This document shows positions 21,199-39,285 of a stretch of DNA of 64,000 bases, piece after piece; positions within the stretch are counted from its first letter, which is position 1; the number at the start of each line of letters is the position of its first letter. The translations under genes and the position numbers were made by a program. The notes under the pieces are model-generated. The model ran no database searches. It was not told the origin of the DNA and saw only the letters and a program-made list of their open reading frames with translations. This DNA is from Escherichia phage UB: the sequence record MH383160; one strand, 5' to 3'.

Positions 21199-21393
21199 CT
21201 ATTTTTTGTCTCTAATAGCAAGCTCGTAGATGAACCAGTGGTTGGAATCTTCGTCCAAAACCAATGATTCGAACGTTTTTTTATCGTTCAAAACATCATA
21301 ATGGCCTTGGCGTATACCAAATCCAAAATGATCATGTTTATATTTTAGTGACTCTATCCATTCTTCATGTGTCATTTTATGTATCCAGTTCAA
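21199..21393 (-). CDS. Small protein, MTHEEWM family (64 aa)
   Basis: MNWIHKMTHEEWIESLKYKHDHFGFGIRQGHYDVLND...WFIYELAIRDKK. Confidence 0.5.
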   Translation of the reverse strand: MNWIHKMTHEEWIESLKYKHDHFGFGIRQGHYDVLNDKKTFESLVLDEDSNHWFIYELAIRDKK

Positions 21394-21455
21394 TTAAGTG
21401 TTTCATTTATTCTTCTGTAAAGAAAGCATTGCAATGGACAATGGAAAAGGTTATT

Positions 21456-21633
21456 ATATTTTTTTGTCTCTAACCGCAAGCTCATAGATGAACCAACGAT
21501 TTCCATTCTCATCTAGTACATATGATTCGAACTTATATTTGTCTCGTAAAATATCGAAATGACCATCAATAAATCCATTTCCAAACTGGTCATAACGTTT
21601 TTTCATCATTGCCATCCATTCTTCATGTGTCAT
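21456..21633 (-). CDS. Small protein, MTHEEWM family (59 aa)
   Basis: Manual translation MTHEEWMAMMKKRYDQFGNGFIDGHFDILRDKYKFESYVLDENGNRWFIYELAVRDKKI. Confidence 0.4.
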
Positions 21634-23716: not shown

Positions 23717-23746
23717 AAAAAAATACCCAGTACTTGACTGGGTATT
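23717..23746 (-). terminator. Intrinsic terminator (minus strand)
   Basis: Hairpin ACCCAGT-ACTTG-ACTGGGT flanked by an A/T run. Confidence 0.5.
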
Positions 23747-25086
23747 TACAAAGTAACGTTTAATCAGATTTCTTTTCGTAATCTGTAAAAACAGTCAGGA
23801 TTGTTGCACATAGTGAATCAACTACTGATGCACGTGTGTTATCAAGGTCTTTAGCTAGTGCTTGAATCTCTTGAAGTTTTACTACTAAGTCGATTTTTTG
23901 ATTACTCATTACTTCTCCTATTGGATGTTTTTTAGATATTAATTTTTATACCACTAAGGTCTAGAACTTTTTTATTAGATACTGTTTCTGATTCTAATTT
24001 AGTTTCTTTTACCTCAGTGTTAATATTTACGTCATCTTTGAGAATATCAGGGATAATACCATGTTGAATATCATCGTACATAGAAACAACGGTTTCGGCA
24101 CAAGATAACATTTCACGAACTTTGTACTGATAACCCTGTGGTAACTCATTGATGATTTCCATAATATCTAGTAATTTAGTTTGGACATCAATAAGAATTT
24201 TTCTTGATTTTTCTGGTTCCATTACTCCAACTCCACAACATTACTTTTTTTGGATTTAATCACTGATGGTGGCTCATTAACGCTTGTTTGACCACGAAGT
24301 GATTTTTCCAACGCAATGATGCGTTTTAAAGTTTTTATTGATGGTCGCTTCTTCGTCAACTCAGCTTTTGCTTCTGAATAATATTTTCTTACATATCCAT
24401 AGGCATAATATTTTGAACCAATGAAAATTTCAGCAACTACTGGATTTGAGTATTGTGTATCAATTCCATCTAGATCCGTGTCTACCGAGTAGAATGAAAT
24501 ATTTGTATCACATGCTGAAATTTTAGCCACCAAAAGATTTGCATCGAACTTATCTAAAATTAGAGAAATTGTTTTTTCGGCATCAGCACTATATGGCATA
24601 GCAGACATTAAAAGTTGGAATGTCTTAAAGTACTTACTTCCACTAATCATGGTATTGAAAATCAATCCAATGGTGATTAATGCAAGTGTACCAATACACA
24701 CAAACAAAAACCAATATTCAACACTCATTTATAAATCCTCTTACTTTATATGATTAAAATGCCCCATCAAAAATGATGAGGCGGTAAGATAAATTACTTA
24801 CGATTTGCTTTACGCAGTTCAGATAGTTCTTCTTGAAGACTTTTCTTCCATGCAATCAAGTGAGCAAAACGGATTGGCCTTGCACCAGTACCGTGGAATA
24901 CTGCTAGAGCTTCTTCTGCTTGATGAATCTGGAATTGAATGTAGTTCACAGTGCGGTCGAAGTCGGTGATATCTAGTACTTGTGCGTTAGTTTCTTTAGC
25001 CATTTTAATACCCTTTTATTTCTTTTTTATGAAAAACCCTCATCATTGAGGAATGGTTTGCATTTTAATATCTGCCGATAACAAAC

Positions 25087-25114
25087 ATTATATCACAATA
25101 TCTGTTCTTGTCCA
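25087..25114 (-). promoter_or_regulatory. Sigma-70-type promoter (TGGACA-N16-TATAAT, extended -10)
   Basis: Minus-strand TTGGACA...TGTGATATAAT upstream of 24794..25003. Confidence 0.5.
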
Positions 25115-25963
25115 ATTTTTAATTATTAGAAAGAACAATTTTTGAAACTGGTAAATCTGTATCATTTACACGTTGTTCATTATATCCATTCTGTACAAGA
25201 ATGTCAATAACTTTAGACTTATCAATTGTAAATGATTCTAACATATCATATCGGTAATAACCAATAGTCTGACTGAACTCATATTTTCCTGGCTGTTGAC
25301 GACAACACGTATTTGTTTCAGCCATAATCTTATTGATTAGGTAATATGTTTCAGTACTATCAATATTTGGAATATAGATCTTATCATCAAAATGAATTAC
25401 TTCATGTTTATTCATAGAGTGATTCAATCTCCGCTTTAAGAATGGAAATGATCTCTTTCTGAAGGCCAGTAATTTCACTGTTCAAAGATGATAGTCGCTT
25501 CGATAATGCCATGAATTGCTTTGCATCTTCTTTAGAACGGTCATTTCGTACTTTATCAGAACTCCAGTTAGCATATGATTGCTCATCTTTCCTGTTAAGG
25601 ATATCCCAGTCTAAACGTACTAGTTTACGTTCTTTCTTCAGTTCGCTTAAGCGAGATTTCATTTCGTCTTTAGTCATTAGATTGTTCCTTTCATGAAGTC
25701 TGGAATAACGATTACGATAGGAGGATTATACTCTACATAACCATTTTTTGTCAATAGACTTTTAATATCTGAAATCACATTATCATGCTGTTCAATATCT
25801 TTATCACAAAAGATTTCCAATTCTTTCTGAAACGGTTTTTTAACCGAGATGTTTTGAGTCAGTGTTTGGATTCGCTGTAACATATCAATTGGATCTGGAC
25901 TGAACTCATTACCAACATAAAGAGTACCAGATGCATCTTTTTCTAGCAAGACTTCTAAAATTT

Positions 25964-26800
25964 TCATTTCGTATCCTTCAATTTACTAAAGTTTTCTCGT
26001 GTAAATCCAGGAACTGGAAAATATACATCACAGTCAACATCAGGATTCATAATTACCATGTCATTACATATTATATCACGAATTTTACTGCCGTCCACGA
26101 TTTTTTGCATTAAATCATTCCATTTTTTACGAGAAATAACGAATGTACTAATTATACATAAATCATGTCCACGTTTTGAAATATATCCTAGTACTTCATT
26201 ATCGTAAACAACACGTATGGTAACTTTTCCAATTGTAACCCCTCTTACTGGATTAATACTAGTATCTTCAAAAATTAATTCTAATTTAAGTTTACCATTC
26301 GAAATAAGTGATGAAGTATATCTAGAAACCATTTTATCAATTTCTTGAGTCAAATCATCTCTATTTAGATATTCAAATACAGAATAAGTTAATTCGTCTG
26401 CACCTAGTTCTTGGATAGTTGGAAGCTGTGCCACCATATCCAAAGATACAGGTTCGATATATATTCTTTCAATATCAGAAGATTGTACAAATAGACAACC
26501 ATCAGGTGTCGTATCTCTAACAATTTCGGCATAATATGTATAAAGATAAAAAACATTAGACTCTGATGAGTCAGTTTCTACCCAAATCTCAGATTGTTTC
26601 ATTTCATCTTTATGAAGAATTCGTTGAGTAAATCCTATGTAAAAACCAAGATATAAATCATCATCAGTTTCAAACGGATTAAACATCAAATACGGATATT
26701 TGTCAAGGTACTCATTGAACTTACGCTGTACATCTCTATCACAATCCATGATATACTTTAGGAATTCAGAAATGATTATTTTTTCTAATGACATAATCAA
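25964..26800 (-). CDS. Hypothetical protein (278 aa)
   Basis: Long ORF; no recognisable motif. Confidence 0.5.
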   Translation of the reverse strand: MIMSLEKIIISEFLKYIMDCDRDVQRKFNEYLDKYPYLMFNPFETDDDLYLGFYIGFTQRILHKDEMKQSEIWVETDSSESNVFYLYTYYAEIVRDTTPDGCLFVQSSDIERIYIEPVSLDMVAQLPTIQELGADELTYSVFEYLNRDDLTQEIDKMVSRYTSSLISNGKLKLELIFEDTSINPVRGVTIGKVTIRVVYDNEVLGYISKRGHDLCIISTFVISRKKWNDLMQKIVDGSKIRDIICNDMVIMNPDVDCDVYFPVPGFTRENFSKLKDTK

Positions 26801-26980
26801 TCCTCAAGATGCATGTAGTACATAAACATCGCCAACCATATAAAAAACCCGAAACAACGAAGTAAAATATCAATTGTTGGATCTGTCCCACCATTAACTT
26901 GGTAAACGATTACTGGGATTAAAGCAATAGTAATAGATACAGCACATAAGATGAATGCAACAAACACCTCAAACATAAAC

Positions 26981-27553
26981 TTAATCGTTTCCATTATTAT
27001 CCTTCAATGTGTAGTGTAGTACATCTAAAAAGTTATACATTGATTCATTACGCACAACCTTGATTGTTAAATTACGACAACCCAACATACGTTTGAGGCG
27101 ACGCTTCACCGCAGTTAAATCATGTGTACTATTCGTATACAGACCATTAACCTGACCTGGAACAGTTGGCACATGAAGAATGTAATCATAATTCATTAGT
27201 AAGCGTTGATTATATTTCTTTAATGCTTGCTTGTATTCTGAAATATTTTCAAAGAATGTACAATAACGGTCGTAACGATTCATTTTATTCAAAATTGAAA
27301 TACGAAAAGCGTTACCACTATTCCAATCATCTTCAGTTGGGTTTGGGTTGATATGTGCCATGTTAGCTGTACTGTACCCACCACTTGTGAAAACTTCAGA
27401 ATATCCATTCTCAAAAACATACAATGTTGCTTTGTGGCCTCTGAATTTTTTACGGTACTTTGACAGTACTTGAATGTGATTACGCTTGGACTTGTACATC
27501 TCGTAACCTTCATAATCTGAACTGAATTCACAAATTTTATCAACACCAGCCAT
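26981..27553 (-). CDS. Hypothetical protein (190 aa)
   Basis: ORF with GAGGA RBS and consensus promoter immediately upstream. Confidence 0.5.
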   Translation of the reverse strand: MAGVDKICEFSSDYEGYEMYKSKRNHIQVLSKYRKKFRGHKATLYVFENGYSEVFTSGGYSTANMAHINPNPTEDDWNSGNAFRISILNKMNRYDRYCTFFENISEYKQALKKYNQRLLMNYDYILHVPTVPGQVNGLYTNSTHDLTAVKRRLKRMLGCRNLTIKVVRNESMYNFLDVLHYTLKDNNGND

Positions 27554-27585
27554 TTCGTATATCCTCGTTTAATTAATATAGGAGT

Positions 27586-27614
27586 ATTATACATACTCCA
27601 TTTTCATGTGTCAA
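27586..27614 (-). promoter_or_regulatory. Consensus sigma-70 promoter (TTGACA-N17-TATAAT)
   Basis: Both hexamers are perfect consensus on the minus strand. Confidence 0.6.
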
Positions 27615-28084
27615 GCTTTATAATACGGAAGACTTTTTACTAAAGATTCAGACGTATTATTTTTTACCCATGTACTACCGTTGTCATTAGATACGTATCC
27701 AGTACCATTAATAAATTTACGCATAATACCAGTAAAAATATTAGTATACACCATTACTCAGTATCCTTTGGTTTAGAATGTAAACCATACTTTTCATCAT
27801 AACGATCATAGGTAGTACCATTAGTACTAGCTTTGATGCTTTCAGTACGATTGATTGGTTCAATCTTAACACCACGATAACCAATCTCTTCTTTAAATTG
27901 TTCCCATGATTCACGTAGACTCATTTTAGCCCCTTTTGTTATTTCATACACTCACGTAGGTCAATCTTTTCTACTGACCCACCGAGTACTAGATAGTGAA
28001 AATTAGAATCTTTGTTTGCCATATTCAAAAGATCTGCTTTCTGTTGAAGCGTAAAGCGTGAAGTACTGTTACGTACTGGCATAG

Positions 28085-28528
28085 TTACTCCTTAAAGTAG
28101 ATATCACGAATTTGTTTAATCATCTCTAACTCTTGAAGTCCTATCATACCAAAGTCTTCTTGTATTGTCAACTGCTGAAAGTACATTTCTTCTAAATTAT
28201 TGTACGGAATCTCAACAAGATTCAAAGGCTCACTTTCCACACGATAAATTGTATCTTGTACATCATGTTTTTCGATATGAATACTAAATGTATCTTTTTG
28301 AATTCTAAATTTATAAAATGTTTGATTTGTTGTAAACAAACCAACTTTAGGATGGAATCCCATTTGAATACACAAACAATCTTCATCCTTATATTTCAAG
28401 TATATAGCTTTTGACGTTGCTAGTACTTTAGATTTTGGGAAATAAAAATCACCCATCAGCTTCTGACGTTTCCAGTCCTCATATACAACTGGATGCTTAA
28501 CCTTCTTCAATTGGTGCAGTACTGTCAT
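28085..28528 (-). CDS. Member of C-terminal EExFFQxS-motif paralogue family
   Basis: C-terminus LEEMYFQQLTIQEDFGMIGLQELEMI. Confidence 0.55.
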   Translation of the reverse strand: MTVLHQLKKVKHPVVYEDWKRQKLMGDFYFPKSKVLATSKAIYLKYKDEDCLCIQMGFHPKVGLFTTNQTFYKFRIQKDTFSIHIEKHDVQDTIYRVESEPLNLVEIPYNNLEEMYFQQLTIQEDFGMIGLQELEMIKQIRDIYFKE

Positions 28529-28907
28529 AGTTTTTTCCAGTCCAATGAATCGAAATCGATTTGTTCAGGATTATCAACAGCGACAACTCGTGCATTATGA
28601 AGAGTTTCAAAGTAGCCGTTCCACGGTGTACGTACTGGAATTTTTTCATCTCCAATTTTTACAAAGAAAGAGAATTCACATGACATTGGATCAAACCATT
28701 CTTTATGTTTGGCTTCATCGATTATTGTCGCACGTTCGTTACTATATGCATCATCGAGTTTCTTAAAGAATACCCAATGCTCTTTCAAAGACTGTAATGC
28801 TACAACTGCCTCATCCTTTGATTCCCATTGAACATCCAATGTATTGGTAACTGAATCTTCAGTTTCAGTGTCCCCTGTAGTGTAATGTACTTCAATGCTG
28901 TATTTCA

Positions 28908-29363
28908 TTAATCATCGCCTTTTAGTAATTTACAAATTTCAATCATATGATAATAACATGTATTCCAAAATTGTCCATTAGTACTTCCAACATCATGCAC
29001 AGTACTTTGTTGGAAAACATATTCATCGTTGAACATCATTTTAATATCATCAATGTAAAATTCTGGTTTTGAATCATTATTGTATTCAATACTCGTTTCA
29101 CCATCTGGATCAAGTGAAATTGATGATATGTCGTGAATTCCTCTCGGATTTGTTGGATAAATTCTCAACGTAAGAGGATAGAAGTCTGGATCGGTTTCAT
29201 AAGTATATTCGATTATGTAATAACCATCACCAGTAATTGATTGATATTTAAATGTAGTTTCAATTGAATTTGAGATGTTAAATCCCAGTTTCTTTATCTC
29301 ATCTACATGAGATAATATTTTATGTAAAGTTCCTAAAACATGAATCAAATTATCAATTTTCAT
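28908..29363 (-). CDS. Member of C-terminal EExFFQxS-motif paralogue family
   Basis: C-terminus NDEYVFQQSTVHDVGSTNGQFW. Confidence 0.55.
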   Translation of the reverse strand: MKIDNLIHVLGTLHKILSHVDEIKKLGFNISNSIETTFKYQSITGDGYYIIEYTYETDPDFYPLTLRIYPTNPRGIHDISSISLDPDGETSIEYNNDSKPEFYIDDIKMMFNDEYVFQQSTVHDVGSTNGQFWNTCYYHMIEICKLLKGDD

Positions 29364-29902
29364 TTACGAACCTTTGAAAAGTTTAGTTTAAAAGATTTAC
29401 CAAATTCCATTGTAGCTTTACCCAGATTGTTAATATTTTCCTTTAACATTTCTTGCATCTTATTCATACTTTCAATCCAAGCTTCTTCTTCGATACGAAG
29501 AATTGGTCGCAATCGTTCCTGAATATCGATAAAACGTGTATTGAGTTCTACTAATGATTCATATGTGAAATCTTTCATGTCGATAATAGTACTTCGTTGA
29601 AAGAATTCTTCTTCGGATAAATTACTTAAAATGATTTTATCACGACCAATAGATAATGTCAATTCATCATCTTTATTTTTTTTAATTACAATACTAACAG
29701 GTGTTTTTAATGTAATGCAAATATCATGATTATTAAATGTTTCAGTTTGGTTTGACATTCTGAATTGAAGTTTCCCAGATAAAGCATGTACTGGTGATGG
29801 TTTCTTTTTACCAGTAATAACATCTTCCCATGAATCGAGAATATTATTAATAATTTTAACATAAGGAATTGGCATATATGCACCTATGAAAAATCCACGC
29901 AA
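29360..29902 (-). CDS. Member of C-terminal EExFFQxS-motif paralogue family (with C-terminal extension)
   Basis: SEEEFFQRSTIIDMKDFTYESLVEL. Confidence 0.55.
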   Translation of the reverse strand: MRGFFIGAYMPIPYVKIINNILDSWEDVITGKKKPSPVHALSGKLQFRMSNQTETFNNHDICITLKTPVSIVIKKNKDDELTLSIGRDKIILSNLSEEEFFQRSTIIDMKDFTYESLVELNTRFIDIQERLRPILRIEEEAWIESMNKMQEMLKENINNLGKATMEFGKSFKLNFSKVRK

Positions 29903-30399
29903 TGCGTGGATTTGTAATTATTCAAGTATAGTAATTTCAATTAAACGAATTTCGATAAACTCGTTTTCAGTTTCCCATGACGTGCCAAATTTCTTTTCAA
30001 GTTCAGATTTCACATCACTTTTAAATTTTCCCATAGTATTAGGAATAATTTGTTTGGTTAATTTGTCGTAACCACAATAAAACATAGGTTTCTCCCTTCG
30101 AGATATTAGCTGAACAAAATCTTTTGGATATGCAGGTATGTTATGCATCACTTCATGAATACACTCAGTACTTGAATCTTGTACTTTGTACATTACATTA
30201 AGTTTACCTCTGAAATTTGCGGTCATATCAACAATAGTTCCTTTACCCGATTTAAGTAAAGTTCCATTCTTTGAATGAGAGCAATAAAATACCTCATCAC
30301 CAATATTAGGATAATACAAATTAAATTCTAATTCAGATTTTACAGCCAGCCGTTTGAAACTTTCTGTACGTTTTATATAAGTTTGGTATTTGTTTATGT

Positions 30400-31260
30400 T
30401 CAAAAGAATATCTCTCTTAGTAAATGTGATATAACTGGCATAGTCCATCCATTCCCAAGCATTTTGTATGCTTGTGTCTTACTAGACACTTTAAAGAAAT
30501 CTTCAGGAACACCCTGTAATTTACAACATTCTACTACACTTAAGTGTCTATAGTCAATATTTCTTTTGCCATTCTCTAATAGATATTGACGACTGATCAC
30601 TGGGTCACGAAACACCAATTGTCGTCTGGATTTATTAAAGTACTGGTTACAATCACCACCTTTAAAATAGTTAGCATCTATACAGTACGAAGCGGTTCTG
30701 TCAGTGTACCAACCATCTTCAATAATATCTTGAAGTTTAGGTGCATTGGATAATGCAGGTGGTATAAAAAGCTTATCAGTACTGTACCAGTAATATCTCT
30801 GCCTGAAGTGAGGCGTATAATGCTGGGAGTTTATCAGTACTGGCGTGATTCCTAAAATACTATTAATGTATTCTTTGAAATCTTCTTTCATTTTAACATT
30901 TTCAAACAGAAATTTCAAGTTAGGATTAAGACTTTTGATATGATCAAAAATTTCAACCATTACTAAAAATAACTGCCCACGTATATCATTTAAACCACCC
31001 TGTTTACCTGCAACTGACCAGGCTTGGCATGGGAAACCACCCATTAATAAATCTATTTTGTCCCACTCAATATCCCATTCTCTCCACTTAGTTACATCAC
31101 CCAATTGGATAATATCAGGAAAGTTAGATTGAGATTCAGCTATTGCGTACTTATCAATTTCGGATGAATAATATTTTTCAACTGGGATACCAGCATCTTG
31201 CAATGCCATATATCCCACACTCATTCCATTAAAAAGAGAAAGTACTCGGATAGGTTTCAT
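30400..31260 (-). CDS. DNA (cytosine-5)-methyltransferase (286 aa)
   Basis: Motif I-like LSLFNGMSVG; motif IV GGFPCQAWS; motif VI FLFENV; motif VIII-like QHYTPHFRQR; C-terminal LGNGW. Confidence 0.75.
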   Translation of the reverse strand: MKPIRVLSLFNGMSVGYMALQDAGIPVEKYYSSEIDKYAIAESQSNFPDIIQLGDVTKWREWDIEWDKIDLLMGGFPCQAWSVAGKQGGLNDIRGQLFLVMVEIFDHIKSLNPNLKFLFENVKMKEDFKEYINSILGITPVLINSQHYTPHFRQRYYWYSTDKLFIPPALSNAPKLQDIIEDGWYTDRTASYCIDANYFKGGDCNQYFNKSRRQLVFRDPVISRQYLLENGKRNIDYRHLSVVECCKLQGVPEDFFKVSSKTQAYKMLGNGWTMPVISHLLREIFF

Positions 31261-31917
31261 ATAAAATCCTTTTTATATTGTTAAGGTACTATAATATATT
31301 ATAGCATCTTATTTAGAAATCTTCCAAACTTTTTTCATCACACCATCGTGATGTACAGATGATTGCAGATGCCAGAATTGAAGCACTTGCACGTCCTCCA
31401 CCGAGTAAGTACTGGCTAATTACGCCAATCATATTGAACACTTTATCATACTCGGTTAGTTGTTCAAAACCTTTCTTCCAATGCTGATATTCTTCTTCTG
31501 TGACATTAAACTCACCATCAAGTTCCTTTAAAATCTTTTTAAGCACAGCACTATGTTCACTCATCATCATCTCCATATCGTTCGTCATAAAAATCATCAT
31601 CACGATCTAATGGTTCTTTTGGCTTTTCAGACATATATTTCCTCACATGGTAAAGGTATTATCACCATCCATATCTTCATCAGTTGCTTCAGCTAATGTC
31701 TTGATTGTAAGTAATCCACGCTTCACGTACAACATGAAGACCTTTTCATAATTACCAAACATAATCTCAGGTGACATGTAATTCTCTGTTACAATGACGA
31801 TTGGACGGCCCTGTGAAAGCATACGAAACATAGTACGATATTTGTCAAATGTGCGAAATTCATCCATGTTCATCATGTGGCGTTTACGAACTACTTTAGT
31901 CATCTTAATACCTTTAG

Positions 31918-32358
31918 TTAATTGAACTCTACTTCTGGATAATGATTATAGAACATCTCACGAACTGCGTCAAGATGTTCTTGAAATTGTTTTATATCTT
32001 CTAATGATGGTGCATCAATAACAGTACTAAGTTGAAACAACGATTCTTCTGTGTTATATAGTGACATATCAAATGAGTTATTGTTGTCATCAGTTATGAT
32101 ATTATCACAAATTTCGTATGTGTCAATACAAACATCATCAAGTGTTGTATTATCATATACAGTGTATACGAATACAAAAATAAAAGAAGAATGTTCTTTA
32201 CCATAACGCGGTGGGTCATATGTCACATAGCATTTGTGGTCAAATGTATCGAGTTCCATAGACACCACCCCAGCTTCACGATATTCATTAGTTTCACTGG
32301 TAAGATCCGGTATTGATGTTATCGAAAGTAAGTGGAGAAATTTACTTGGATTTAGCAT
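31918..32358 (-). CDS. Member of C-terminal EExFFQxS-motif paralogue family
   Basis: C-terminus TEESLFQLSTVIDAPSLEDIKQF. Confidence 0.55.
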   Translation of the reverse strand: MLNPSKFLHLLSITSIPDLTSETNEYREAGVVSMELDTFDHKCYVTYDPPRYGKEHSSFIFVFVYTVYDNTTLDDVCIDTYEICDNIITDDNNNSFDMSLYNTEESLFQLSTVIDAPSLEDIKQFQEHLDAVREMFYNHYPEVEFN

Positions 32359-32813
32359 TTCACCACCATTGGATTTTGCGACTGTATATTAAAAAGGGAT
32401 AATACAAAAGTACTCAATTTTTCGAAACAATCTACTAATACATTTAACTCATCATAACTAACACCAATTTCACGAATAAGCGATTGTTGAAAGAATCCTT
32501 CTTCGGTTAACGTTAAACTACTAACCTCAGTTATGTTATAATAACTTTGGGATGTTGTGGTTGATATTAGTTGTATTGCAATCGTATCTGATGTTGTGTT
32601 GTACAGATATAAATATTTTGTTTTTCTTTCCAATGGATCTATACATGAAAGATCGATCATGTCATAGGTTTTTCCAATAAAAATATTACAATCATCTGAC
32701 AATTCACAACAAATGCGTATATGTTCTTTCGGGTCATGAACACGTTGTGTGTCAAATTCACATGACATTGCAATTTCAAAATGATTTTTTATTTCGTCAA
32801 CATTCATCTGCAT
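32352..32813 (-). CDS. Member of C-terminal EExFFQxS-motif paralogue family
   Basis: TEEGFFQQSLIREIGVSYDELNVLV. Confidence 0.55.
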   Translation of the reverse strand: MQMNVDEIKNHFEIAMSCEFDTQRVHDPKEHIRICCELSDDCNIFIGKTYDMIDLSCIDPLERKTKYLYLYNTTSDTIAIQLISTTTSQSYYNITEVSSLTLTEEGFFQQSLIREIGVSYDELNVLVDCFEKLSTFVLSLFNIQSQNPMVVKC

Positions 32814-33181
32814 CCACCATTAATTCTTATATTTGTATAGTTTAATGCTTTTTTAATAATACCAATTTCTGTAATTCCTATTACATTTTTCTCAATCAAT
32901 GACAATTGGAATAGTTCCTCTTCGGAAATATCAATACTGTGGATTCTTGTACAATAATCGTTGAAGTCATATACATATCGTATTGTATAGTCGTTTATAG
33001 AAACTGATACAATTGCAATCCCATCATGGATGTAAGTTAGTTCATTTGAGTATCTATTAAAAATTAACCTATCTGGTGAACCTATTGGTAGTTGAAATGT
33101 ATTTCTAGTATCTTGAACAATAACAAAATCATCATCTATATTTTTACTCAGAACACCCAAAATATCATATATAGTAGTCAT
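32804..33181 (-). CDS. Member of C-terminal EExFFQxS-motif paralogue family
   Basis: SEEELFQLSLIEKNVIGITEIGII. Confidence 0.5.
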   Translation of the reverse strand: MTTIYDILGVLSKNIDDDFVIVQDTRNTFQLPIGSPDRLIFNRYSNELTYIHDGIAIVSVSINDYTIRYVYDFNDYCTRIHSIDISEEELFQLSLIEKNVIGITEIGIIKKALNYTNIRINGGCR

Positions 33182-33182
33182 G

Positions 33183-33587
33183 TTATTCTTTACCTTCAGC
33201 AGTTCTGATAATTTTCATAACTTCTCTGGATAGTGCGTATATTTTTTTATAGTACTCAAATGTAACTGAACCAAAATCATTAATAGTACTAGCCATGAAG
33301 AACGATTCTTCTGTATATAGTTCATTTGACAAAGCAACCAGTTCTTGGTGAAATTTTGCGTCCTTCCAATAACGAAATTCAAAAACAAATTGTCCGTCAT
33401 GACCGACTCTACAACATTCAGAACGATCACTGTCTACACAGCTAAACACAATATCCCTTTCAGAGTCGTACCAGATATTTCCAATATTTGTTTCAATAAC
33501 AGCATAATCAATTTTTTTAGAATTTGGAATTAAACCTTTTTTCACCAGCACTAAACTGGTATTATCAATATCTAGTAAACTTACCAT
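33183..33587 (-). CDS. Member of C-terminal EExFFQxS-motif paralogue family
   Basis: TEESFFMASTINDFGSVTFEYYKKI. Confidence 0.55.
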   Translation of the reverse strand: MVSLLDIDNTSLVLVKKGLIPNSKKIDYAVIETNIGNIWYDSERDIVFSCVDSDRSECCRVGHDGQFVFEFRYWKDAKFHQELVALSNELYTEESFFMASTINDFGSVTFEYYKKIYALSREVMKIIRTAEGKE

Positions 33588-33588
33588 A

Positions 33589-33999
33589 TCAATTCCCCAT
33601 TACTAAAGTGTTTTTAATCTCCAACAATTCACTATACATATTCTTCAATTGTAATATATCTTCAAAAGTAATACCACCAAGATCATCAACTAATGAACGT
33701 TGGAATAAAGATTCACTTGTTTGTAATGTATCTAAATCGGTGATTTTTAATAAAGAACTTGGATTAAGTGTTTCGACTAGTAGTATGTTTTTGTATGGTA
33801 CATATGTGATCTTGATGTTCTTTTTATAATTAATCTTATAAAATCGCATAATTGACGATTCATCACTTAGTTGGATAATTGGGTCGTCTTGTTCATTAGA
33901 CCACCATACAGTACTAGTCATATGATTGACGTGGTGGTTCAATTCTGATATGTCCAAATCTAAAAAATATTTTAGTTCATTGTGTAAATCTAAACTCAT
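33589..33999 (-). CDS. Member of C-terminal EExFFQxS-motif paralogue family
   Basis: SESLFQRSLVDDLGGITFEDILQL. Confidence 0.55.
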   Translation of the reverse strand: MSLDLHNELKYFLDLDISELNHHVNHMTSTVWWSNEQDDPIIQLSDESSIMRFYKINYKKNIKITYVPYKNILLVETLNPSSLLKITDLDTLQTSESLFQRSLVDDLGGITFEDILQLKNMYSELLEIKNTLVMGN

Positions 34000-34054
34000 A
34001 AATTTATCCTCAATGCAGCATCATCATGTATTGTAGGATAAACCCACAATAATG

Positions 34055-34450
34055 TCAAGATGTGAAATAATTATACCAGTAATATAGTTCTTTTAATTCT
34101 TCAGTACTGAACAATACTTCTTCTATTGTAGATTGTTGAAAGTGATATTCATCATTTAGATACATAGAAATATTACTATATACTTTCCTATTGTATTGAC
34201 ATAAAAAAGAAGTTTTTTGATTAATGTATTCAGTAAATGTTAATTTATCTAACTCAATATCGAATGATAATTTAATAATATGACTATTATCATTTACATA
34301 CATTAGTTTCTTTGAAAAATGATCAATTGTAATATATTCTTTATGAGAGAACTGAAATATATTATTAAATTTATTACCATTTGTGCTTCTAAATTTTTCA
34401 AGGTAATAAGAAAGTGGTTTAATTATTGAAGTTCCAATATTGTTCTTCAT
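34055..34450 (-). CDS. Member of C-terminal EExFFQxS-motif paralogue family
   Basis: NDEYHFQQSTIEEVLFSTEELKEL. Confidence 0.5.
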   Translation of the reverse strand: MKNNIGTSIIKPLSYYLEKFRSTNGNKFNNIFQFSHKEYITIDHFSKKLMYVNDNSHIIKLSFDIELDKLTFTEYINQKTSFLCQYNRKVYSNISMYLNDEYHFQQSTIEEVLFSTEELKELYYWYNYFTS

Positions 34451-34470
34451 ATATCCTCAATTTTAGATAA

Positions 34471-34496
34471 GAAAAATGCCCCGAAGATCGGGGCAG
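34471..34496 (-). terminator. Intrinsic terminator (minus strand)
   Basis: Hairpin TGCCCCGA-AGA-TCGGGGCA with flanking A5 (T5 on the minus strand). Confidence 0.55.
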
Positions 34497-34610
34497 TACT
34501 AAAATGATTTTGTACCAAAAGGGGAATAAGAACAAAATGAAAATATAATAACGCATCATTATTATGTAAGGGAGGAAAGTAACATGATATGTTAACCATT
34601 TCTGGTATAT

Positions 34611-35162
34611 TTATTTATCATTTAATTCTTTAAGTTGGGTTTGTATATCTTTAGTTATATTTCGAATTTTCTTAAAGCAATAAACACTATCGTCCAATTC
34701 GATTTTAAGTTCATGTGTAAATGCATACAGAAGTTCAGCAAATACTAAATCTTGACGCATCCAGTTTCCATCTTTATATAAAGTCATTACACAATATGGG
34801 CATTCACTATTAGAAGTTTGCTTTCCAATAAAAACACTTTGAATTGATTCATGCTTAAAGCCAATAAAACTTTCATTTATTTTTTTAATTTCAGTACTGA
34901 TATCGAATTTAGCACTGGTGTTGATTGCAAAAATTTTATTCCCACTTTCATCAGTATTGATATTGAGTTCAATATCACTACCTAGTTTACGTACTGCTAG
35001 AGTATAAAGAAGTAATTCATACATGTCGTAACTTGTTACATTACCATTTGGTGCAATTACATCAACACTAACACCGTGCATTTTTACTTCTGTATTAAAT
35101 CCATCTTTATCAGAAAGAAAATCAGTGATTTGCTTTGTAAGGATTTTAATTTGGTCTATCAT
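34611..35162 (-). CDS. Hypothetical protein (183 aa)
   Basis: ORF; no recognisable motif. Confidence 0.5.
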   Translation of the reverse strand: MIDQIKILTKQITDFLSDKDGFNTEVKMHGVSVDVIAPNGNVTSYDMYELLLYTLAVRKLGSDIELNINTDESGNKIFAINTSAKFDISTEIKKINESFIGFKHESIQSVFIGKQTSNSECPYCVMTLYKDGNWMRQDLVFAELLYAFTHELKIELDDSVYCFKKIRNITKDIQTQLKELNDK

Positions 35163-35215
35163 ATTTCATTTCCTTATGTGATAAAAGCCTCCATAATGGA
35201 GGCTTTTGTATTTAC

Positions 35216-35644
35216 TTAGAGAGATTCTTCGTATTCAGCAACAATCCCAACCATTTCATTAATGAACTTGATGTGAGAATGTGTCACTGTACGGAAATCG
35301 TAAACAAGTGACTGTTGGAAAAATACATCTTCATCAAGAGAACCATCAAAGTTCAAATCAATGTTTTCATCGTCATTGCTTGGTGCAACTTTAATATTCA
35401 GAAGATTTTCATCAACTGCAAGTTTTACAACACAACCCAGTGCAATGGCAAGAACATATGCTGGTTTCTTAGCTTTTTCATTACGGAATGGTGCACGTAG
35501 AGCACAAAAAGTACTGCTAATCTCATCATTCGGTTCTTTGTATTTAACATTGACCATTAGTTCTTCGATTTTGACGCTCTCAATAACACGACCAGTTTCT
35601 GGAGCGAAGAAAGAATGTTCACGGATAGTTTGTTCGATATTCAT
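35216..35644 (-). CDS. Member of C-terminal EExFFQxS-motif paralogue family
   Basis: DEDVFFQQSLVYDFRTVTHSHIKFI. Confidence 0.55.
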   Translation of the reverse strand: MNIEQTIREHSFFAPETGRVIESVKIEELMVNVKYKEPNDEISSTFCALRAPFRNEKAKKPAYVLAIALGCVVKLAVDENLLNIKVAPSNDDENIDLNFDGSLDEDVFFQQSLVYDFRTVTHSHIKFINEMVGIVAEYEESL

Positions 35645-36963
35645 ATATTATTCCTTATTTAGATTGCTAAAAATACGAAGATTGCGGTTTGCTTTAAACT
35701 GTTTCAAATCACCAAATCTATCATCAACGATGAAAGTTGCTGATTTCTTTGACTGACATATTGTACAAATCAACATACCTTGTATTGTATACTCAGTTGA
35801 GCAATTTGTACAGTACTTTTTTTCATAAAGTTCAGTACTCATAAAACCTTCACATCAGTACGTTTTTCTCTTTGTTCTTTTTTAACCTCATCAGTTCTAG
35901 TATCTTCTAATTGTAACACAACTTCTTTTAGAATGTCAACATCAATTGTTGCTTCTACATATTGATAGTCGTTTACACCAAAAACATACTTTACTGCAAC
36001 CCATACACGGTTATACCATTTTAAAAAAGGATTTAAACGCATACTTATCAGACATTGACCAAGTTTATCATCTCCATATTCCTCTGTCAAGTCAAATTGT
36101 GCAATGTGAACGCAATGCTCCATTTTATCGCCACAAGAACAACGTAAAATATACTCTTTACTATCTTCACTCATACTGGATAAGCCTTTAAAAATTGTTT
36201 AAGAACTCCAAACTTAGATGAATCGTAATCGTATTGATAGTTAAGCTCTCGCTTATCATTCATACGATACACCATATGAAAATTTGGATAACCAATTCTA
36301 ACAGGTTTTTTAGGATTAGCAAGTAAAATTGCCCATTCTTTTACAGGAAATACGTTTTCAGACAGCATTTTGATATTTGTTTCAAAATACTTCATGGCTT
36401 GCTTTCCGTGCTTGTAATCTTCTTCACTAATCTCTTGACAATCAATTCTATGTGTTTCGGTATCTAACACCCATTGTTGATCTTCGGTATATAAATCAAT
36501 TACATCATCAATAGTATAACTATCAGGTAAATCATAAAATACCCAATGAGATAAACCAGAACTTACACCAATTCGAATTTTAAAGAACTTCATTCTTTAT
36601 CACCTTTTACATAATTATAACACACGACACAGTGAATTACAAGAAGAATTATTTCCACAATATTAAGAGACAATACATGACTCTGCGGTGTGAAAAGTGC
36701 CAATAACAACATTATAGCAGGTATTGTGAATATTTTCCAAGTTTTTTTCATTTTATTCCTTTGTATATGCATATGGTAAAAATAAAACCTCTGCATTAGG
36801 AATGCATTGTGCCAATCCTTCAACAATAGATTTGTTTTTATTACATTGCCAAACTTTAGTAATTTTATGTCTAAATACTTTTTTATCAACAACAATCCAG
36901 TACATGTCCATTTTAACAGTACTGTTATCAGATGGTGTTAGTAAAGTATCGATGTCATATGTA

Positions 36964-37245
36964 TCAAAGATTTTGTCGTTCATATAATCTCCTAATAAAA
37001 TATTCTCGATTCTCTCTTATATACCCAGATACACAGTTAGTTGTGGCTTGGTTAGTGAATGAAATCTCACTATTGGACACGCCATTTGCATCACACAAAG
37101 GACATATTCCCATGTACTTGGGGGTCGGGTAGGTGTCCAATTTGTATTTTCCATTACATACCATGTACTGCTGTGGCAATACATCTAATATTATTTCATA
37201 TTCTTCATCAAACACCTTGAAGCATACCCAACATTTACCCATCAT
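36964..37245 (-). CDS. Small zinc-ribbon-like protein (93 aa)
   Basis: CWVC ... CPLC cysteine pairs. Confidence 0.4.
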   Translation of the reverse strand: MMGKCWVCFKVFDEEYEIILDVLPQQYMVCNGKYKLDTYPTPKYMGICPLCDANGVSNSEISFTNQATTNCVSGYIRENREYFIRRLYERQNL

Positions 37246-37726
37246 AGTTTTCCTTTAACACAGTTCTTATATATTCGAATGTTTTAACAAACCAATCATG
37301 TTCGTCGGATACATCTACAACTTTACCACCATATACATAGTAATGGTAAAAAGGCAACTTGCTTTTTCTTAATCTTTCGGCTAACTCTGGATTTTGAATT
37401 ATCTTAGCACAAATAGCATCTTGAATAATAGAAATACAATCATCCGTCATTTCAATTCGATCATGCATATATTTGTTAGCGGCTGCTTTTGCTGCTGCAC
37501 CAGATACTTTTCTAAGGTCATCATGTTTTTGCCCAGTTAAAAACCAAAAGTAAAATGTTTCAACTGAAGGGAACCAACCATATGGTTCAAGTGTGAAGCT
37601 ATGCGAAGAAAAGTTAGATAGATCTCTACCTAACTTCGTTCTGGCTTTACTATAAATGTTAATATGTCGGTATCCATCATCAGTAGGGTCAATGAAGTTA
37701 AATGACTCTTCTGGGAATTCAAACAT
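37235..37726 (-). CDS. NADAR (YbiA/DUF1768)-like protein (163 aa)
   Basis: LSNFSSHSF...SVETFYFWFLTGQ...VSGAAAKAAANK...NPELAERL matches the E. coli YbiA pattern FSNF...SEHYFQAQKF...NPEL. Confidence 0.55.
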   Translation of the reverse strand: MFEFPEESFNFIDPTDDGYRHINIYSKARTKLGRDLSNFSSHSFTLEPYGWFPSVETFYFWFLTGQKHDDLRKVSGAAAKAAANKYMHDRIEMTDDCISIIQDAICAKIIQNPELAERLRKSKLPFYHYYVYGGKVVDVSDEHDWFVKTFEYIRTVLKENYDG

Positions 37727-39285
37727 AATTATTCTTCTTCTCCTGAAGGTGTTCCACGTAGTTTATCAAAATCAACCCAAATACCATGCTGGTTTTTAAA
37801 TCGACATTTCTCATAGTACCAACTATAGTCCGTTTCAACACCTTGTGAAATAGAACGCACACTACAATCATACATATTATATAAATGTTCCCTGACAATA
37901 TATGTATTAATCAGTACAACGAATAATACAATAATACCACAGATTTTAGGATGGTCCATAATCAAGTCAAGTACTGATCTAGTTTCAGAACTATCAATCT
38001 TACTTCTACAAATAGTAACAATTTTAAGAACAGCGAATGATACCAGTAATGAAATTACAATAACACTTAAATAAATTAGCATAAATTACACTCCTACACC
38101 AAAACGTAAAATAATATTATTAACAAACACTAAATCAAAAGGTGACTTTGGTTCAGATACTGAGTACTGAAATGATTCTGCTGCGAAATTTTCTCTATTA
38201 TACCATGTTTCAGAATTTATTAGCATTTTTTTATCACCAATCGTCACTGAATGTAATGGAACATTTGAAGAAGAATTTATTGAATATGCATTAAGATTAC
38301 CGTTTTCATCTAATGTGATACTAAGATAATATCTTTTCTCAATATCAGGAATAAGTTCTTTTGTATACGAATAGATTGAATCAACCCATTCATCATGTAC
38401 ATTTTCTGCACCAACCAGGTGTCCGAATGACAAATTACGTTTAACTGGCTTTGTTCCAGGACGAGTTAGAATGAATTGTTTTGTTAAGTAAAAATTATTA
38501 TGTTTTACTTCAATATTAACATTTTTAAAATTCACCACTTTATCATATACATTTCGAAAAACTGTTATATCCCAAGTACTAATTTCATCCATAATACTTA
38601 TCACCAGTTCTTCTAGTTCTTGTATAAATGGCAAATCATCTTGATGAAATCTAGTCATGGTTTTCATATACCTTTTTCAAATTCATAATTTCAAGAATGC
38701 TGTATTCTTTATCACCAATCAAATCTTCAGTGAATGCAGTGGGGTCGGCATCGCTATACAACTTACCATTGATGATAACACAACCATTACTAAGATACAA
38801 TGCACTCATGATCTGTTGTCCTTCTTTCACATTTTGTGCTAGACCTGTATTTGTTACTACAAATCCATTTGTTGCTAATGATGATGTTAGTTCTGACCAT
38901 TCAACTGATATTAAGTCGCGATAGTCCTTAGATACTTTTATATTCACAATACAAGCAACTCGTTTAATAGGTGGAGTGCTAATCGTGTACATTTGTGGTT
39001 GTTGGTAATTAGAGTTGTATGTTTGTGGTGTTTTAACAGCAGTTCCTGAATTTTGAGTTGATTTGGTAATTACTGGTTCTACACTGGGGACTGTTGTTCT
39101 TAGTGATATAATACGTCCAGTTTCATCCAATTTAAGGACTAAACGATGAGTTTCATCCTCAGAGTAATAGGGAAACAAGCCACCGGAATTCATATTTTGA
39201 AGCATTTTAATTAATTCATAAGTATTTTTTAAAAACATAGTACACCCCATAGAAAAGGGGAGTACAAAGTACTCCCAACATTTAA

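What the first reader, a model, noticed from the sequence alone, without database searches (positions are those of the whole stretch)
30400..31260. Orphan C5 cytosine methyltransferase without an obvious restriction partner
A clear Dcm-type C5-MTase (PCQ, ENV, QxRxR motifs) lies between members of the paralogue arrays. The overlapping downstream ORF (29918..30448) shows no nuclease motifs. A lone methyltransferase is most simply a self-protection device against host restriction.
Basis: partly seen in the sequence, partly recalled or inferred. Interest (0 to 1): 0.45.

Follow-up and report, generated by a model that had tools for sequence, protein, structure and literature searches.

The report
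Lone phage cytosine-C5 DNA methyltransferase
This is a real, intact, stand-alone cytosine DNA methyltransferase gene of a known giant E. coli phage (PBECO4/121Q group), already annotated as such in public records; it has no restriction-enzyme partner, and the DNA sequence it methylates is still unknown.

Summary
The ORF at 30400..31260 (-) is a bona fide 286-aa C5-cytosine DNA methyltransferase (Pfam PF00145, E 7.5e-38; catalytic Cys78, ENV, RxR and GNGW motifs; AlphaFold pLDDT 94.5). The window is Escherichia jumbo phage PBECO4/121Q (Asteriusvirus). The gene is PBECO4 gp416, already annotated "DNA methyltransferase" and already read as protective methylation in several papers.

It is not an E. 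coli Dcm orthologue or a supported M.HaeIII. It belongs to a large, mostly viral short-TRD family whose nearest solved structures are DNMT3A/B/C catalytic domains.

No restriction endonuclease was recognised beside it or among the 115 other ORFs of the window. The downstream ORF is a lineage-specific ORFan.

The target motif is unresolved. Nanopore data on two orthologue-bearing Erwinia phages show 5mC only at CCWGG. Against this, DNA of an Asteriusvirus with a 95.5%-identical enzyme is reportedly cut by dcm-sensitive SexAI, CCWGG shows no C>T hypermutability, and CCWGG is avoided in many genomes whose MTase shares the conserved TRD core.

In passing: the genome has zero GCGC sites (about 155-294 expected), as do all sampled relatives carrying the orthologue. 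The finding itself is ordinary and known.

The parts
30400..31260 (-). C5-cytosine DNA methyltransferase CDS (286 aa; PBECO4 gp416 / 121Q gp91). Catalytic Cys78 in GGFPCQAWS, ENV 120-122, R153/R155, GNGW 269-272. The putative target-recognition region is about residues 160-237, with conserved core DRxxSYCIDANYFKGGxxNQYFNKSRRQLVF.
31267..31271 (-). Shine-Dalgarno-like AAGGA, 6 nt upstream of the ATG at 31260.
   Evidence: read directly from the sequence
31298..31327 (-). Sigma-70-like promoter candidate: TTGGAA, 18-nt spacer, TG-TATAAT (10/12 matches, extended -10). Weak evidence: the number of such sites in the region is no higher than in shuffled sequence.
29918..30448 (-). Downstream ORFan (PBECO4 gp415, phrog_28599, function unknown). 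The likely real start is TTG 30403..30401, overlapping the MTase stop (TTGA), so it is probably co-transcribed. Not a recognisable nuclease. Listed as context, not as a functional partner.
29891..29913 (.). Perfect 10-bp-stem palindromic hairpin (AAATCCACGC-AAT-GCGTGGATTT) just after the gp415 stop. Possible transcript end or processing site for the MTase-gp415 pair. Untested.

Best explanation
The gene encodes a catalytically competent, stand-alone S-adenosylmethionine-dependent DNA cytosine-C5 methyltransferase of a compact class, in which a Rossmann catalytic core carries a very short target-recognition insert. By the established mechanism of this superfamily it should flip a cytosine out of duplex DNA, attack C6 with Cys78, transfer the methyl group to C5 and resolve the intermediate with the ENV glutamate (inferred, not tested here). 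It is made by the phage during infection without any cognate nuclease. Its most likely use is to methylate a short motif in replicating phage DNA so that progeny genomes resist cytosine-sensitive host nucleases. This would complement the phage's main strategy, which is wholesale elimination of restriction sites from its genome, and a second Dam-family methyltransferase (gp148). The motif is not established. CCWGG (Dcm-like, inner C) is the leading single candidate at roughly 0.3, and a site that the phage has purged from its own genome is a real alternative.
For: Identity and integrity. Pfam and TIGRFAM scores are far above their cut-offs. All catalytic motifs are present. The AlphaFold model has pLDDT 94.5 and pTM 0.91. 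Foldseek against the PDB returns DNMT3A/B/C catalytic domains end to end (TM 0.79-0.80, E about 1e-25), and phmmer against the PDB gives DNMT3C/A/B at E 3e-23.

Conservation. The protein is 100% identical in many Asteriusvirus genomes, with 3 synonymous and 0 non-synonymous differences from ECO103 4-12-1. It is 75-78% identical in Mimasvirus, GAP32, EJP2 and Hallingskeid, and 64% in a Klebsiella Rak2-like phage. Adjacent genes are barely or not detectably conserved.

Orphan status.

Restriction pressure on the genome. It has 0 GCGC, CTGCAG, GGATCC, CCATGG, GGTACC, TCCGGA and GCATGC sites where 19-155 are expected, and GATC O/E is 0.51. A second MTase, gp148, is a PF05869 Dam-family protein.

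For CCWGG. Nanopore native-versus-WGA data for Hallingskeid and Kaldavass found GATC, CCWGG (5mC) and, in Kaldavass only, TGCAT. The paper's table of predicted phage methyltransferases lists the orthologues CDS_0275 and CDS_0246 (PMC11780129). The TRD core is conserved between those orthologues and this protein. CCWGG is not purged here (254 sites, O/E 0.85). Phages with an identical or 99.7%-identical enzyme were isolated on E. coli K-12 MG1655. That host carries McrBC, which by established knowledge attacks R-5mC but not the C-5mC made at CCWGG. A different short phage 'Dcm' with a DNMT3A-like fold methylates CCWGG (bioRxiv 10.1101/2023.08.16.553469).
Against: No experiment on this protein exists.

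Against CCWGG, and against methylation of packaged DNA in general:
- fEgEco12 (MTase 95.5% identical) gave restriction patterns 'identical to those predicted' with SexAI (ACCWGGT), and with the CpG-methylation-sensitive SmaI, NruI and ClaI (PMC13070987). That SexAI is blocked by dcm methylation is my own knowledge of supplier tables. The gels could not be inspected.
- In a 330-kb alignment of PBECO4 with ECO103 4-12-1, the inner C of CCWGG is C/T-polymorphic at 1.23 times the baseline (16/952, p = 0.24), so there is no 5mC-type hypermutability.
- Among 34 viral loci whose MTase shares the TRD core, CCWGG is significantly depleted in 11 of 30 testable loci and GGCC in 14 of 31. This is unexpected if those motifs were protected.
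- The authors of the nanopore study say host methylases could explain the motifs they found.
Confidence: 0.55

Rival explanations
1. The enzyme's recognition site is one the phage has eliminated from its own genome (best candidate GCGC). It would then methylate only host or other foreign DNA, for example to mark it for a methylation-dependent nuclease, to interfere with host functions, or as the modification half of a domesticated GCGC system. The phage would be 'self' by lacking the site.
For: GCGC occurs 0 times in 348 kb of PBECO4 (expected 155 by Markov model, 294 by base composition) and 0 times in 350 kb of ECO103 4-12-1. It is also absent from every sampled relative that carries the orthologue: CBB, EJP2, XbC2, Hallingskeid, Kaldavass, an IMG/VR jumbo contig and a Klebsiella Rak2-like phage. 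The E. coli-type 6-mer purges are not shared by the Klebsiella phage. So the GCGC purge is clade-wide and host-independent, as expected for a cause the phage carries itself. A GCGC-specific enzyme would leave no trace in phage methylomes, which would reconcile the nanopore result (CCWGG from host Dcm) with the reported SexAI digestion. The catalytic loop GFPCQAWSVAGKQGGLNDIRGQLF resembles that of M.HhaI as I recall it; this was not tested here.
Against: No TRD similarity to M.HhaI was found: phmmer aligns only residues 4-124. Phages with the same TRD core have ordinary GCGC content, for example Proteus RS51pmB with 213 sites (O/E 0.98), and GCGC is significantly depleted in only 5 of 31 loci with the same TRD core. 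No methyl-dependent or GCGC-specific nuclease was identified. G-5mC-GC on host DNA would be a McrBC substrate, and the consequences of that are unclear. Co-occurrence within one clade is a single evolutionary observation.
Confidence: 0.12
2. The methyltransferase serves the phage's own physiology rather than defence. On this reading it provides epigenetic timing of transcription, replication or packaging, or discrimination of replicated from unreplicated DNA, as orphan MTases such as Dam and CcrM do in bacteria.
For: It is conserved across genera with different hosts and restriction repertoires. It is an orphan. The genome has strongly over-represented short palindromes (GTAC O/E 1.41; AGTACT 891 copies against 119 expected from base composition) that could be protein-binding or modification sites.
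Against: No motif beyond GATC, CCWGG and TGCAT was seen in relatives' methylomes. There is no positional pattern linking any C-containing motif to promoters; AGTACT has no extended consensus. This role is rarer for phage C5 MTases than anti-restriction, which is my general knowledge.
Confidence: 0.1
3. It is the modification half of a phage-borne restriction-modification system whose nuclease lies elsewhere in the 348-kb genome. Chloroviruses use such systems to degrade host DNA.
For: 83% of the genes in this phage group have no known function (phAPEC6 abstract). Type II nucleases are often unrecognisable by sequence. The absolute GCGC purge would fit a nuclease present in every infection.
Against: No REase family appears in the neighbours or in the families listed for the 64-kb window, and none is annotated in the RefSeq record. 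The nucleases that are annotated are HNH or GIY-YIG homing types and repair enzymes. If the genome lacks the nuclease's site, a cognate MTase would be superfluous.
Confidence: 0.05
4. The enzyme makes 5mC only as a precursor for further hypermodification (5hmC, glycosylation), or it methylates RNA such as tRNA in the manner of DNMT2.
For: Phage MTase-TET-glycosyltransferase pathways exist (bioRxiv 10.1101/2023.12.21.572611, listed). One GenBank record labels the orthologue 'DNMT2'.
Against: No dioxygenase or glycosyltransferase appears beside the gene or in the listed Pfam families of the window. Relatives' DNA reads as plain 5mC and 6mA, and fEgEco12 DNA is cut normally by ten enzymes. DNMT2 structures match much more weakly than DNMT3 (E about 1e-9 to 4e-10 against 3e-23). 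The CFT motif that defines Dnmt2 (PMC3227630) is absent.
Confidence: 0.04

Closest known systems
Orphan C5-cytosine methyltransferases of Rak2-like jumbo phages (PBECO4 gp416, 121Q gp91, phAPEC6, CBB_399-type, GAP32_390, Sharanji 'HaeIIIM')
   Same: It is the same gene: 100% (PBECO4), 99.7% (121Q, Sharanji) and 75-78% (CBB, GAP32, XbC2, Hallingskeid, Kaldavass) amino-acid identity, with the same length and TRD. The published interpretation is the same, protective methylation.
   Different: Nothing of substance differs. The public labels 'Modification methylase HaeIII', 'HpaII' and 'DNMT2' are automatic and are not supported by the evidence here.
Catalytic domain of eukaryotic DNMT3A/3B/3C
   Same: These are the nearest solved structures by sequence and by fold, aligned over the whole protein (residues 2-282 against 4-275; E 3e-23; TM 0.79-0.80, 25-28% identity). 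Shared features are the F-x-G-x-x-x-G form of motif I, the R-x-R-Y-(F/Y)-W form of motif VIII, the G-(N/R)-(G/S)-W-(T/S)-x-P-V-I form of motif X, and a very short TRD.
   Different: The phage protein has no PWWP or ADD regulatory domains and no DNMT3L partner, and it is viral. CpG specificity is unlikely, because CpG-methylation-sensitive SmaI, NruI and ClaI reportedly gave the predicted patterns on fEgEco12 DNA and no CG motif was seen in relatives' methylomes. A REBASE-derived Type II MTase model (PADLOC PDLC03272, E 1e-38) fits better than the DNMT3-length models (E 1e-22 to 1e-25). The likeness is therefore to a fold class, not to a sister family.
Phage K42/KarlJaspers 'Dcm' (T1-like phage; trigger of retron Ec86)
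   Same: It is a short, stand-alone phage C5 MTase that its authors superposed on DNMT3A. It is reported to methylate CCWGG and to be common in coliphages. It shows both what such an enzyme can do and that it can be a liability sensed by host immunity.
   Different: It is 236 aa against 286 aa and belongs to a different sequence family: T1-like phages do not appear among the tblastn hits. No evidence shows that gp416 shares its motif.
E. coli Dcm / M.EcoRII
   Same: They share the superfamily and chemistry. CCWGG is the leading candidate motif for gp416.
   Different: Dcm is about 470 aa with a large TRD, and the Dcm subfamily model fails (21 bits against a cut-off of 710). PDB Dcm-like chains match only residues 69-124.
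M.HhaI (GCGC) and M.HaeIII (GGCC), the classical small bacterial C5 MTases
   Same: They share the catalytic core (E about 7e-18) and a comparable small size.
   Different: There is no TRD similarity. HhaI aligns to residues 4-124 only, and HaeIII to 6-204 in two pieces. Both are parts of R-M pairs, whereas this gene is solitary.
Chlorovirus M.CviAIV
   Same: It is a virus-encoded, domain-less MTase reported to cluster with Dnmt3 in phylogenies (PMC3227630).
   Different: It comes from a eukaryotic virus. Its sequence was not compared here.

Membership tests
DNA cytosine-C5 methyltransferase superfamily (Pfam PF00145 / TIGR00675) | Profile score above the curated cut-off | tested here: met
   PF00145 scores 131.2 bits against 22. 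TIGR00675 scores 119.2 bits against 100.65.
DNA cytosine-C5 methyltransferase superfamily (Pfam PF00145 / TIGR00675) | Motif IV Pro-Cys catalytic dipeptide | tested here: met
   GGFP77-C78-QAWS. P77 and C78 are invariant in 59 homologues and align with the PC of DNMT3.
DNA cytosine-C5 methyltransferase superfamily (Pfam PF00145 / TIGR00675) | Motif VI ENV, motif VIII RxR and motif X GN | tested here: met
   E120-N121-V122, R153/R155 and G269-N270 are all invariant in the family alignment. The Gln of the canonical QxRxR is His151 here.
DNA cytosine-C5 methyltransferase superfamily (Pfam PF00145 / TIGR00675) | Motif I SAM-binding loop (FxGxG) | tested here: met
   It is present as the DNMT3-type variant F10-N-G12-M-S-V-G16, with F10 and G12 invariant.
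DNA cytosine-C5 methyltransferase superfamily (Pfam PF00145 / TIGR00675) | Methyl transfer to C5 of cytosine in DNA | not testable with these tools
   Needs expression and methylome or biochemical assay.
E. coli Dcm / EcoRII-type methylase subfamily (NCBIfam NF007772) | Subfamily profile score above the cut-off, with the large Dcm TRD | tested here: not met
   The score is 21.4 bits against a cut-off of 710, matching residues 68-123 only. The protein is 286 aa, against a 472-position profile.
Eukaryotic DNMT3 family | Catalytic-domain similarity over the full length | tested here: met
   phmmer E 3.4e-23 over residues 2-282. Foldseek TM 0.79-0.80, with the top 50 hits all DNMT3.
Eukaryotic DNMT3 family | N-terminal chromatin-reading domains (PWWP, ADD) | tested here: not met
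   The whole protein is 286 aa and is covered by the MTase domain alone.
Eukaryotic DNMT3 family | CpG target specificity | tested here: inconclusive
   The only evidence is indirect literature. CpG-methylation-sensitive SmaI, NruI and ClaI reportedly cut fEgEco12 DNA as predicted, and relatives' methylomes show no CG motif. Both point against CpG.
DNMT2 / tRNA-Asp methyltransferase | [quoted passage not shown] | tested here: not met
   The sequence contains no CFT. DNMT2 structures match at E 4e-10 to 1e-6, against 3e-23 for DNMT3.
Type II restriction-modification system | Cognate restriction endonuclease gene adjacent or nearby | tested here: not met
   The six nearest ORFs have no nuclease family. 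For the 115 other ORFs of the window, no REase model appears among the families listed by PADLOC or Pfam. The downstream ORF is an ORFan with a low-confidence fold (pLDDT 47). Caveat: novel nucleases can escape profile searches.
M.HaeIII-like (GGCC) methylase, as labelled in the slurp01 and Sharanji records | TRD related to M.HaeIII, and GGCC protected | tested here: not met
   HaeIII aligns only to residues 6-204, in two pieces, at E 7e-18, weaker than DNMT3. GGCC is under-represented here (O/E 0.79). It is significantly depleted in 14 of 31 loci whose MTase shares the TRD core.

The most novel reading that the evidence does not exclude
The methyltransferase recognises GCGC (or another site the clade has purged), so it never touches phage DNA. 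The phage would define 'self' by absence of the site and use the enzyme, alone or with an unidentified methyl-directed or GCGC-directed nuclease, to mark or disable host DNA. The host-independent, clade-wide absence of GCGC would then be the footprint of a phage-encoded activity present in every infection, not of host restriction.
Probability: 0.12. Interest if true: 0.8.

Novelty: already known. Interest (0 to 1): 0.3.

Why it matters
As found, it matters little: the gene and its presumed role are already in GenBank and in several phage papers. Three points make it a reasonable small experimental target.

1. Its specificity is unknown, the public labels (HaeIII, HpaII, DNMT2) are unsupported, and the indirect experimental hints contradict each other.
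2. It belongs to a very large, mostly viral family of minimal C5 methyltransferases (more than 8,000 database hits at E < 1e-10) whose nearest solved structures are the mammalian de novo methyltransferases. It could serve as a compact structural and engineering model.
3. Phage C5 methyltransferases can trigger host immunity such as retron Ec86, which is relevant to the therapeutic use of these jumbo coliphages.

The side observation may be worth more than the MTase itself. The whole phage clade has purged GCGC completely, whatever the host.

Tried and rejected
1. Fold of the neighbour gp415.
2. Foldseek against AFDB50, to find characterised Swiss-Prot relatives. The library was not available.
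3. Guessing the GenBank accession of BASEL phage KarlJaspers, to compare the CCWGG-specific K42-type Dcm. The guess returned another phage. T1-like phages are not among the tblastn hits, so that enzyme belongs to a different family.
4. Inferring the motif from site avoidance in 34 other viral genomes with the same TRD core. No commonly targeted C-containing motif is consistently spared. The test only argues against CCWGG and GGCC.
5. Inferring the motif from a deamination footprint. k-mer product enrichment is dominated by restriction-site purging. In the PBECO4 versus ECO103 SNP spectrum the top contexts (GG[C], [C]GC) look like codon-position effects, and CCWGG is not hypermutable.
6. Looking for an R-M-linked close homologue on plasmids. 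The best hit is a phage-plasmid with another orphan MTase pair, and the 4.2-kb enterobacterial plasmids carry only a 29.5%-identical MTase.
7. Checking whether Erwinia aphidicola has Dcm, the confounder of the nanopore result. No usable literature was found, and no targeted genome search is possible with these tools.
8. The CpG-methylase reading, prompted by DNMT3 likeness and CpG O/E 0.74 with TpG/CpA 1.23. I rejected it because SmaI, NruI and ClaI digest fEgEco12 DNA, relatives' methylomes show no CG motif, and GCGC would not need purging if CpG were methylated.
Full report
**What the window is**

A 4-kb stretch around the finding is 99.8% identical to Escherichia phage PBECO4. It is 99.0-99.3% identical to 121Q, phAPEC6, SP27, slurp01, Sharanji and other 350-kb Asteriusvirus ('Rak2-like') jumbo myoviruses. 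The ORF at 30400..31260 (-) is PBECO4 gp416, annotated 'DNA methyltransferase' in RefSeq. Other records call it 'DNA-cytosine methyltransferase', 'Modification methylase HaeIII', 'HpaII' or 'DNMT2'. The phAPEC6, CBB and Sharanji papers already list a C5 and an N6-adenine methyltransferase and interpret them as protective methylation. A comparative survey of jumbo phages notes DCMs in this group.

**Checking the observation**

The ORF is as described: 286 aa, ATG at 31260, an AAGGA ribosome-binding site 6 nt upstream, and TGA at 30402..30400.
- It matches PF00145 at E 7.5e-38 and TIGR00675 at E 2.9e-34, both above the curated cut-offs. It also matches phrog_116.
- Cys78 sits in GGFPCQAWS. ENV is at 120-122, two invariant arginines are at 153 and 155, and GNGW is at 269-272.
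The family consensus is Q-N-R-Q-R.
- The E. coli Dcm subfamily model fails (21 bits against 710), so 'Dcm-type' is true only at superfamily level.
- The flanking ORFs on both sides belong to one paralogue family with an (E/S)E(E/S)xFxQxS motif.

**Fold class**

phmmer against all PDB sequences puts the DNMT3C, DNMT3A and DNMT3B catalytic domains first. They align over the whole protein (residues 2-282 against 4-275) at E 3e-23, ahead of M.HaeIII and M.HhaI (7e-18), DNMT2 (4e-10) and Dcm-like chains (about 1e-3). An AlphaFold model built on 59 homologues is confident (pLDDT 94.5, pTM 0.91). Its 50 best Foldseek matches in the PDB are all DNMT3 (TM 0.79-0.80, 25-28% identity).

The protein shares the DNMT3 forms of motifs I, VIII and X and a very short target-recognition insert. 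This is a resemblance of class, not membership. There are no PWWP or ADD domains. One REBASE-derived Type II model in PADLOC fits better (E 1e-38) than the DNMT3-length models. The Dnmt2-defining CFT motif is absent.

The family is huge and largely viral. More than 8,000 database proteins match at E < 1e-10, as do 787 phage records. These include phi92-like coliphages at 51% identity, a Proteus phage at 48%, and T4-like RB43 and Klebsiella phages at about 30%.

**Is it an orphan?**

The downstream ORF (gp415, 29918..30448) has only four homologous clusters in 5.8 billion proteins, all from close relatives. It has no Pfam, PADLOC or informative PHROG match, and its structure model is unusable (pLDDT 47). 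Weak paralogues lie one or two genes downstream of the MTase in EJP2 and XbC2, and none in CBB, so it is not a conserved partner. Its most diverged homologue begins at the position of Leu16. That suggests a TTG start at 30403..30401 overlapping the MTase stop codon as TTGA.

I translated the 115 other ORFs of the whole window and scanned them together. The families listed by PADLOC (25 of 28) and Pfam (25 of 34) include homing endonuclease, helicase, topoisomerase and similar families, but no restriction endonuclease. The RefSeq record annotates none in the whole genome. The search for R-M-linked close homologues on plasmids found none. 'Orphan' therefore stands, with the usual caveat that novel nucleases escape profiles.

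**Is it functional?**

- The protein is 100% identical across many Asteriusvirus isolates.
- Against ECO103 4-12-1, whose genome is 98.0% identical overall, the gene has 3 synonymous and no non-synonymous changes.
- Across genera it stays 75-78% identical, and 64% in a Klebsiella Rak2-like phage. Adjacent genes have diverged beyond recognition or nearly so.
- All catalytic residues are intact.

This is the pattern of a gene under purifying selection.

**Genomic context**

I assembled the PBECO4 genome from the public record (348,113 bp). It shows extreme restriction-site avoidance.
- These sites occur zero times: GCGC (expected 155 by a Markov model, 294 by base composition), CTGCAG (56), CCATGG (34), GGTACC (34), GGATCC (30), TCCGGA (23) and GCATGC (19).
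- CAGCTG occurs once (expected 36).
- Depleted but present: GATC O/E 0.51, GGWCC 0.53, CCGG 0.59.
- CCWGG is almost untouched (254 sites, O/E 0.85).
- A second MTase, gp148, belongs to the phage Dam family PF05869.

A lone C5 MTase in such a genome is most simply a complement to site elimination.

**Which motif? Evidence for CCWGG**

- Dougherty et al. [quoted passage not shown] They found GATC (6mA) and CCWGG (5mC) in both, plus TGCAT in Kaldavass. Their list of predicted phage MTases includes CDS_0275 and CDS_0246. These are the orthologues of this gene (78% and 76.5% identity), and the TRD core is conserved.
- Two MTases with two motifs, and three MTases with three motifs, is suggestive.
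- C-5mC-WGG is the one common C5 pattern that E. coli K-12's McrBC (R-5mC) tolerates; this is established knowledge. Sharanji and slurp01, with 99.7% and 100% identical enzymes, were isolated on MG1655.
- A different short phage 'Dcm' with a DNMT3A-like fold is reported to methylate CCWGG and thereby trigger retron Ec86.

**Which motif? Evidence against CCWGG**

- The nanopore authors state that host methylases could be responsible. I could not determine whether the Erwinia hosts have Dcm.
[quoted passage not shown] SexAI (ACCWGGT) is blocked by dcm methylation according to supplier tables, which I cite from memory. SmaI, NruI and ClaI are CpG-methylation-sensitive. I could not see the gels.
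- In a 330-kb alignment of PBECO4 with ECO103 4-12-1 (6,468 mismatches), the inner C of CCWGG is C/T-polymorphic in 16 of 952 cases. That is 1.23 times the baseline (p = 0.24). The strongest contexts in an unbiased scan look like codon-position effects.
- In 34 viral loci whose MTase keeps the same TRD core (DR.K[SA].C[ILV]DANY.KGG...YF.K.RRQ), CCWGG is significantly depleted in 11 of 30 testable loci, GGCC in 14 of 31, CCGG in 8 of 25 and GCGC in 5 of 31.

I therefore hold CCWGG at about 0.3. The HaeIII (GGCC) and CpG readings are unlikely.

**The GCGC purge**

GCGC is also absent from 350 kb of ECO103 4-12-1. It is absent from the 6-kb samples of CBB, EJP2, XbC2, Hallingskeid and Kaldavass, where about 42 sites are expected in total. 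It is absent from a 21-kb sample of an IMG/VR jumbo contig (expected 14) and from 50 kb of a Klebsiella Rak2-like phage (expected 16).

In the Klebsiella phage the E. coli-type 6-mers GGATCC, GGTACC and CCATGG are present. So the 6-mer purges track the host, whereas the GCGC purge and a GTAC excess are properties of the clade. An absolute, host-independent purge is what one expects if something the phage itself carries acts on GCGC in every infection.

A GCGC-specific MTase would be invisible in phage methylomes, and that would reconcile the nanopore and SexAI results. I rate a link between this purge and gp416 at about 0.12. Three things weigh against it: there is no TRD similarity to M.HhaI, genomes with the same TRD core have ordinary GCGC content, and no partner nuclease is known.

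**Verdict**

It is plausible but untested, and the sparse experimental hints about own-DNA methylation conflict. The finding is already known as an annotation and scores low on novelty. The open questions are the target motif and the possible connection to the clade-wide GCGC purge.

Noticed in passing
whole window 1..64000 (0 GCGC; 48 expected from base composition); whole PBECO4 genome; loci L002, L003, L004, L014, L015, L030, L099-L105, L107: The tetranucleotide GCGC is completely absent from PBECO4 (348 kb; expected 155 by Markov model, 294 by base composition) and from ECO103 4-12-1 (350 kb). It is also absent from every sampled relative on other hosts: CBB, EJP2, XbC2, Hallingskeid, Kaldavass, an IMG/VR jumbo contig and a Klebsiella Rak2-like phage. 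The purge is absolute and independent of host, which suggests a phage-encoded GCGC-directed activity rather than host restriction.
   Followed up: partly
whole PBECO4 genome; window included: Many 6-bp palindromes are missing altogether: CTGCAG, CCATGG, GGTACC, GGATCC, TCCGGA and GCATGC occur 0 times and CAGCTG once, against 19-56 expected. So are the asymmetric sites CTCCTC, CAGCTC and GAGACC. In the Klebsiella relative GGATCC, GGTACC and CCATGG are present, so these purges track the host.
   Followed up: partly
whole PBECO4 genome; also L107 and L030: GTAC is strongly over-represented (O/E 1.41). AGTACT occurs 891 times against 119 expected from base composition, often as CAGTACTG, with no longer consensus around it. 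GTAC enrichment is shared by the Klebsiella and IMG/VR relatives. The cause is unknown and could be codon usage or a functional dispersed site.
   Followed up: partly
window 28908..29902 and 31918..34450 (minus strand): An array of small paralogous genes of 125-180 aa shares a C-terminal (E/S)E(E/S)xFxQxS(T/L)(I/V) motif on both sides of the MTase block. They match only PHROGs of unknown function.
   Followed up: no
window 30401..30403 and 29891..29913: gp415 probably starts at a TTG that overlaps the MTase stop codon (TTGA), which implies translational coupling. A perfect 10-bp-stem hairpin follows its stop codon.
   Followed up: partly
whole PBECO4 genome: CpG is depleted (O/E 0.74) and TpG/CpA is in excess (1.23). 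C/T polymorphism between PBECO4 and ECO103 is 1.56-fold higher at CpG than at other C sites. This resembles a methylation footprint, but the digests reported for fEgEco12 argue against CpG methylation. It may reflect codon effects and purging of CG-containing sites.
   Followed up: partly
PBECO4 gp009 (L005:8513-9937, minus strand; outside the window): This gene is annotated 'HNH endonuclease' in RefSeq. It matches DUF2201_N (putative metallopeptidase) and a VWA-like domain instead (E 2e-35 and 7e-21), so the label looks like an annotation error.
   Followed up: no
L018 (Vibrio phage Rostov 7, MK575466.1): CCWGG occurs 3 times against 57 expected (O/E 0.05), while CCSGG is two-fold enriched. 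This phage's MTase is a 41-43%-identical relative with a different TRD.
   Followed up: no
plasmid hits H129-H150 (about 4.2-kb plasmids of E. coli, Shigella, Klebsiella and Salmonella): A very common family of tiny enterobacterial plasmids carries a short C5 MTase of about 300 aa, 29.5% identical over the full length. If these are the Kpn2I-type (TCCGGA) R-M plasmids, which I recall but did not check, they would explain why TCCGGA is absent from the phage (0 against 23 expected).
   Followed up: no
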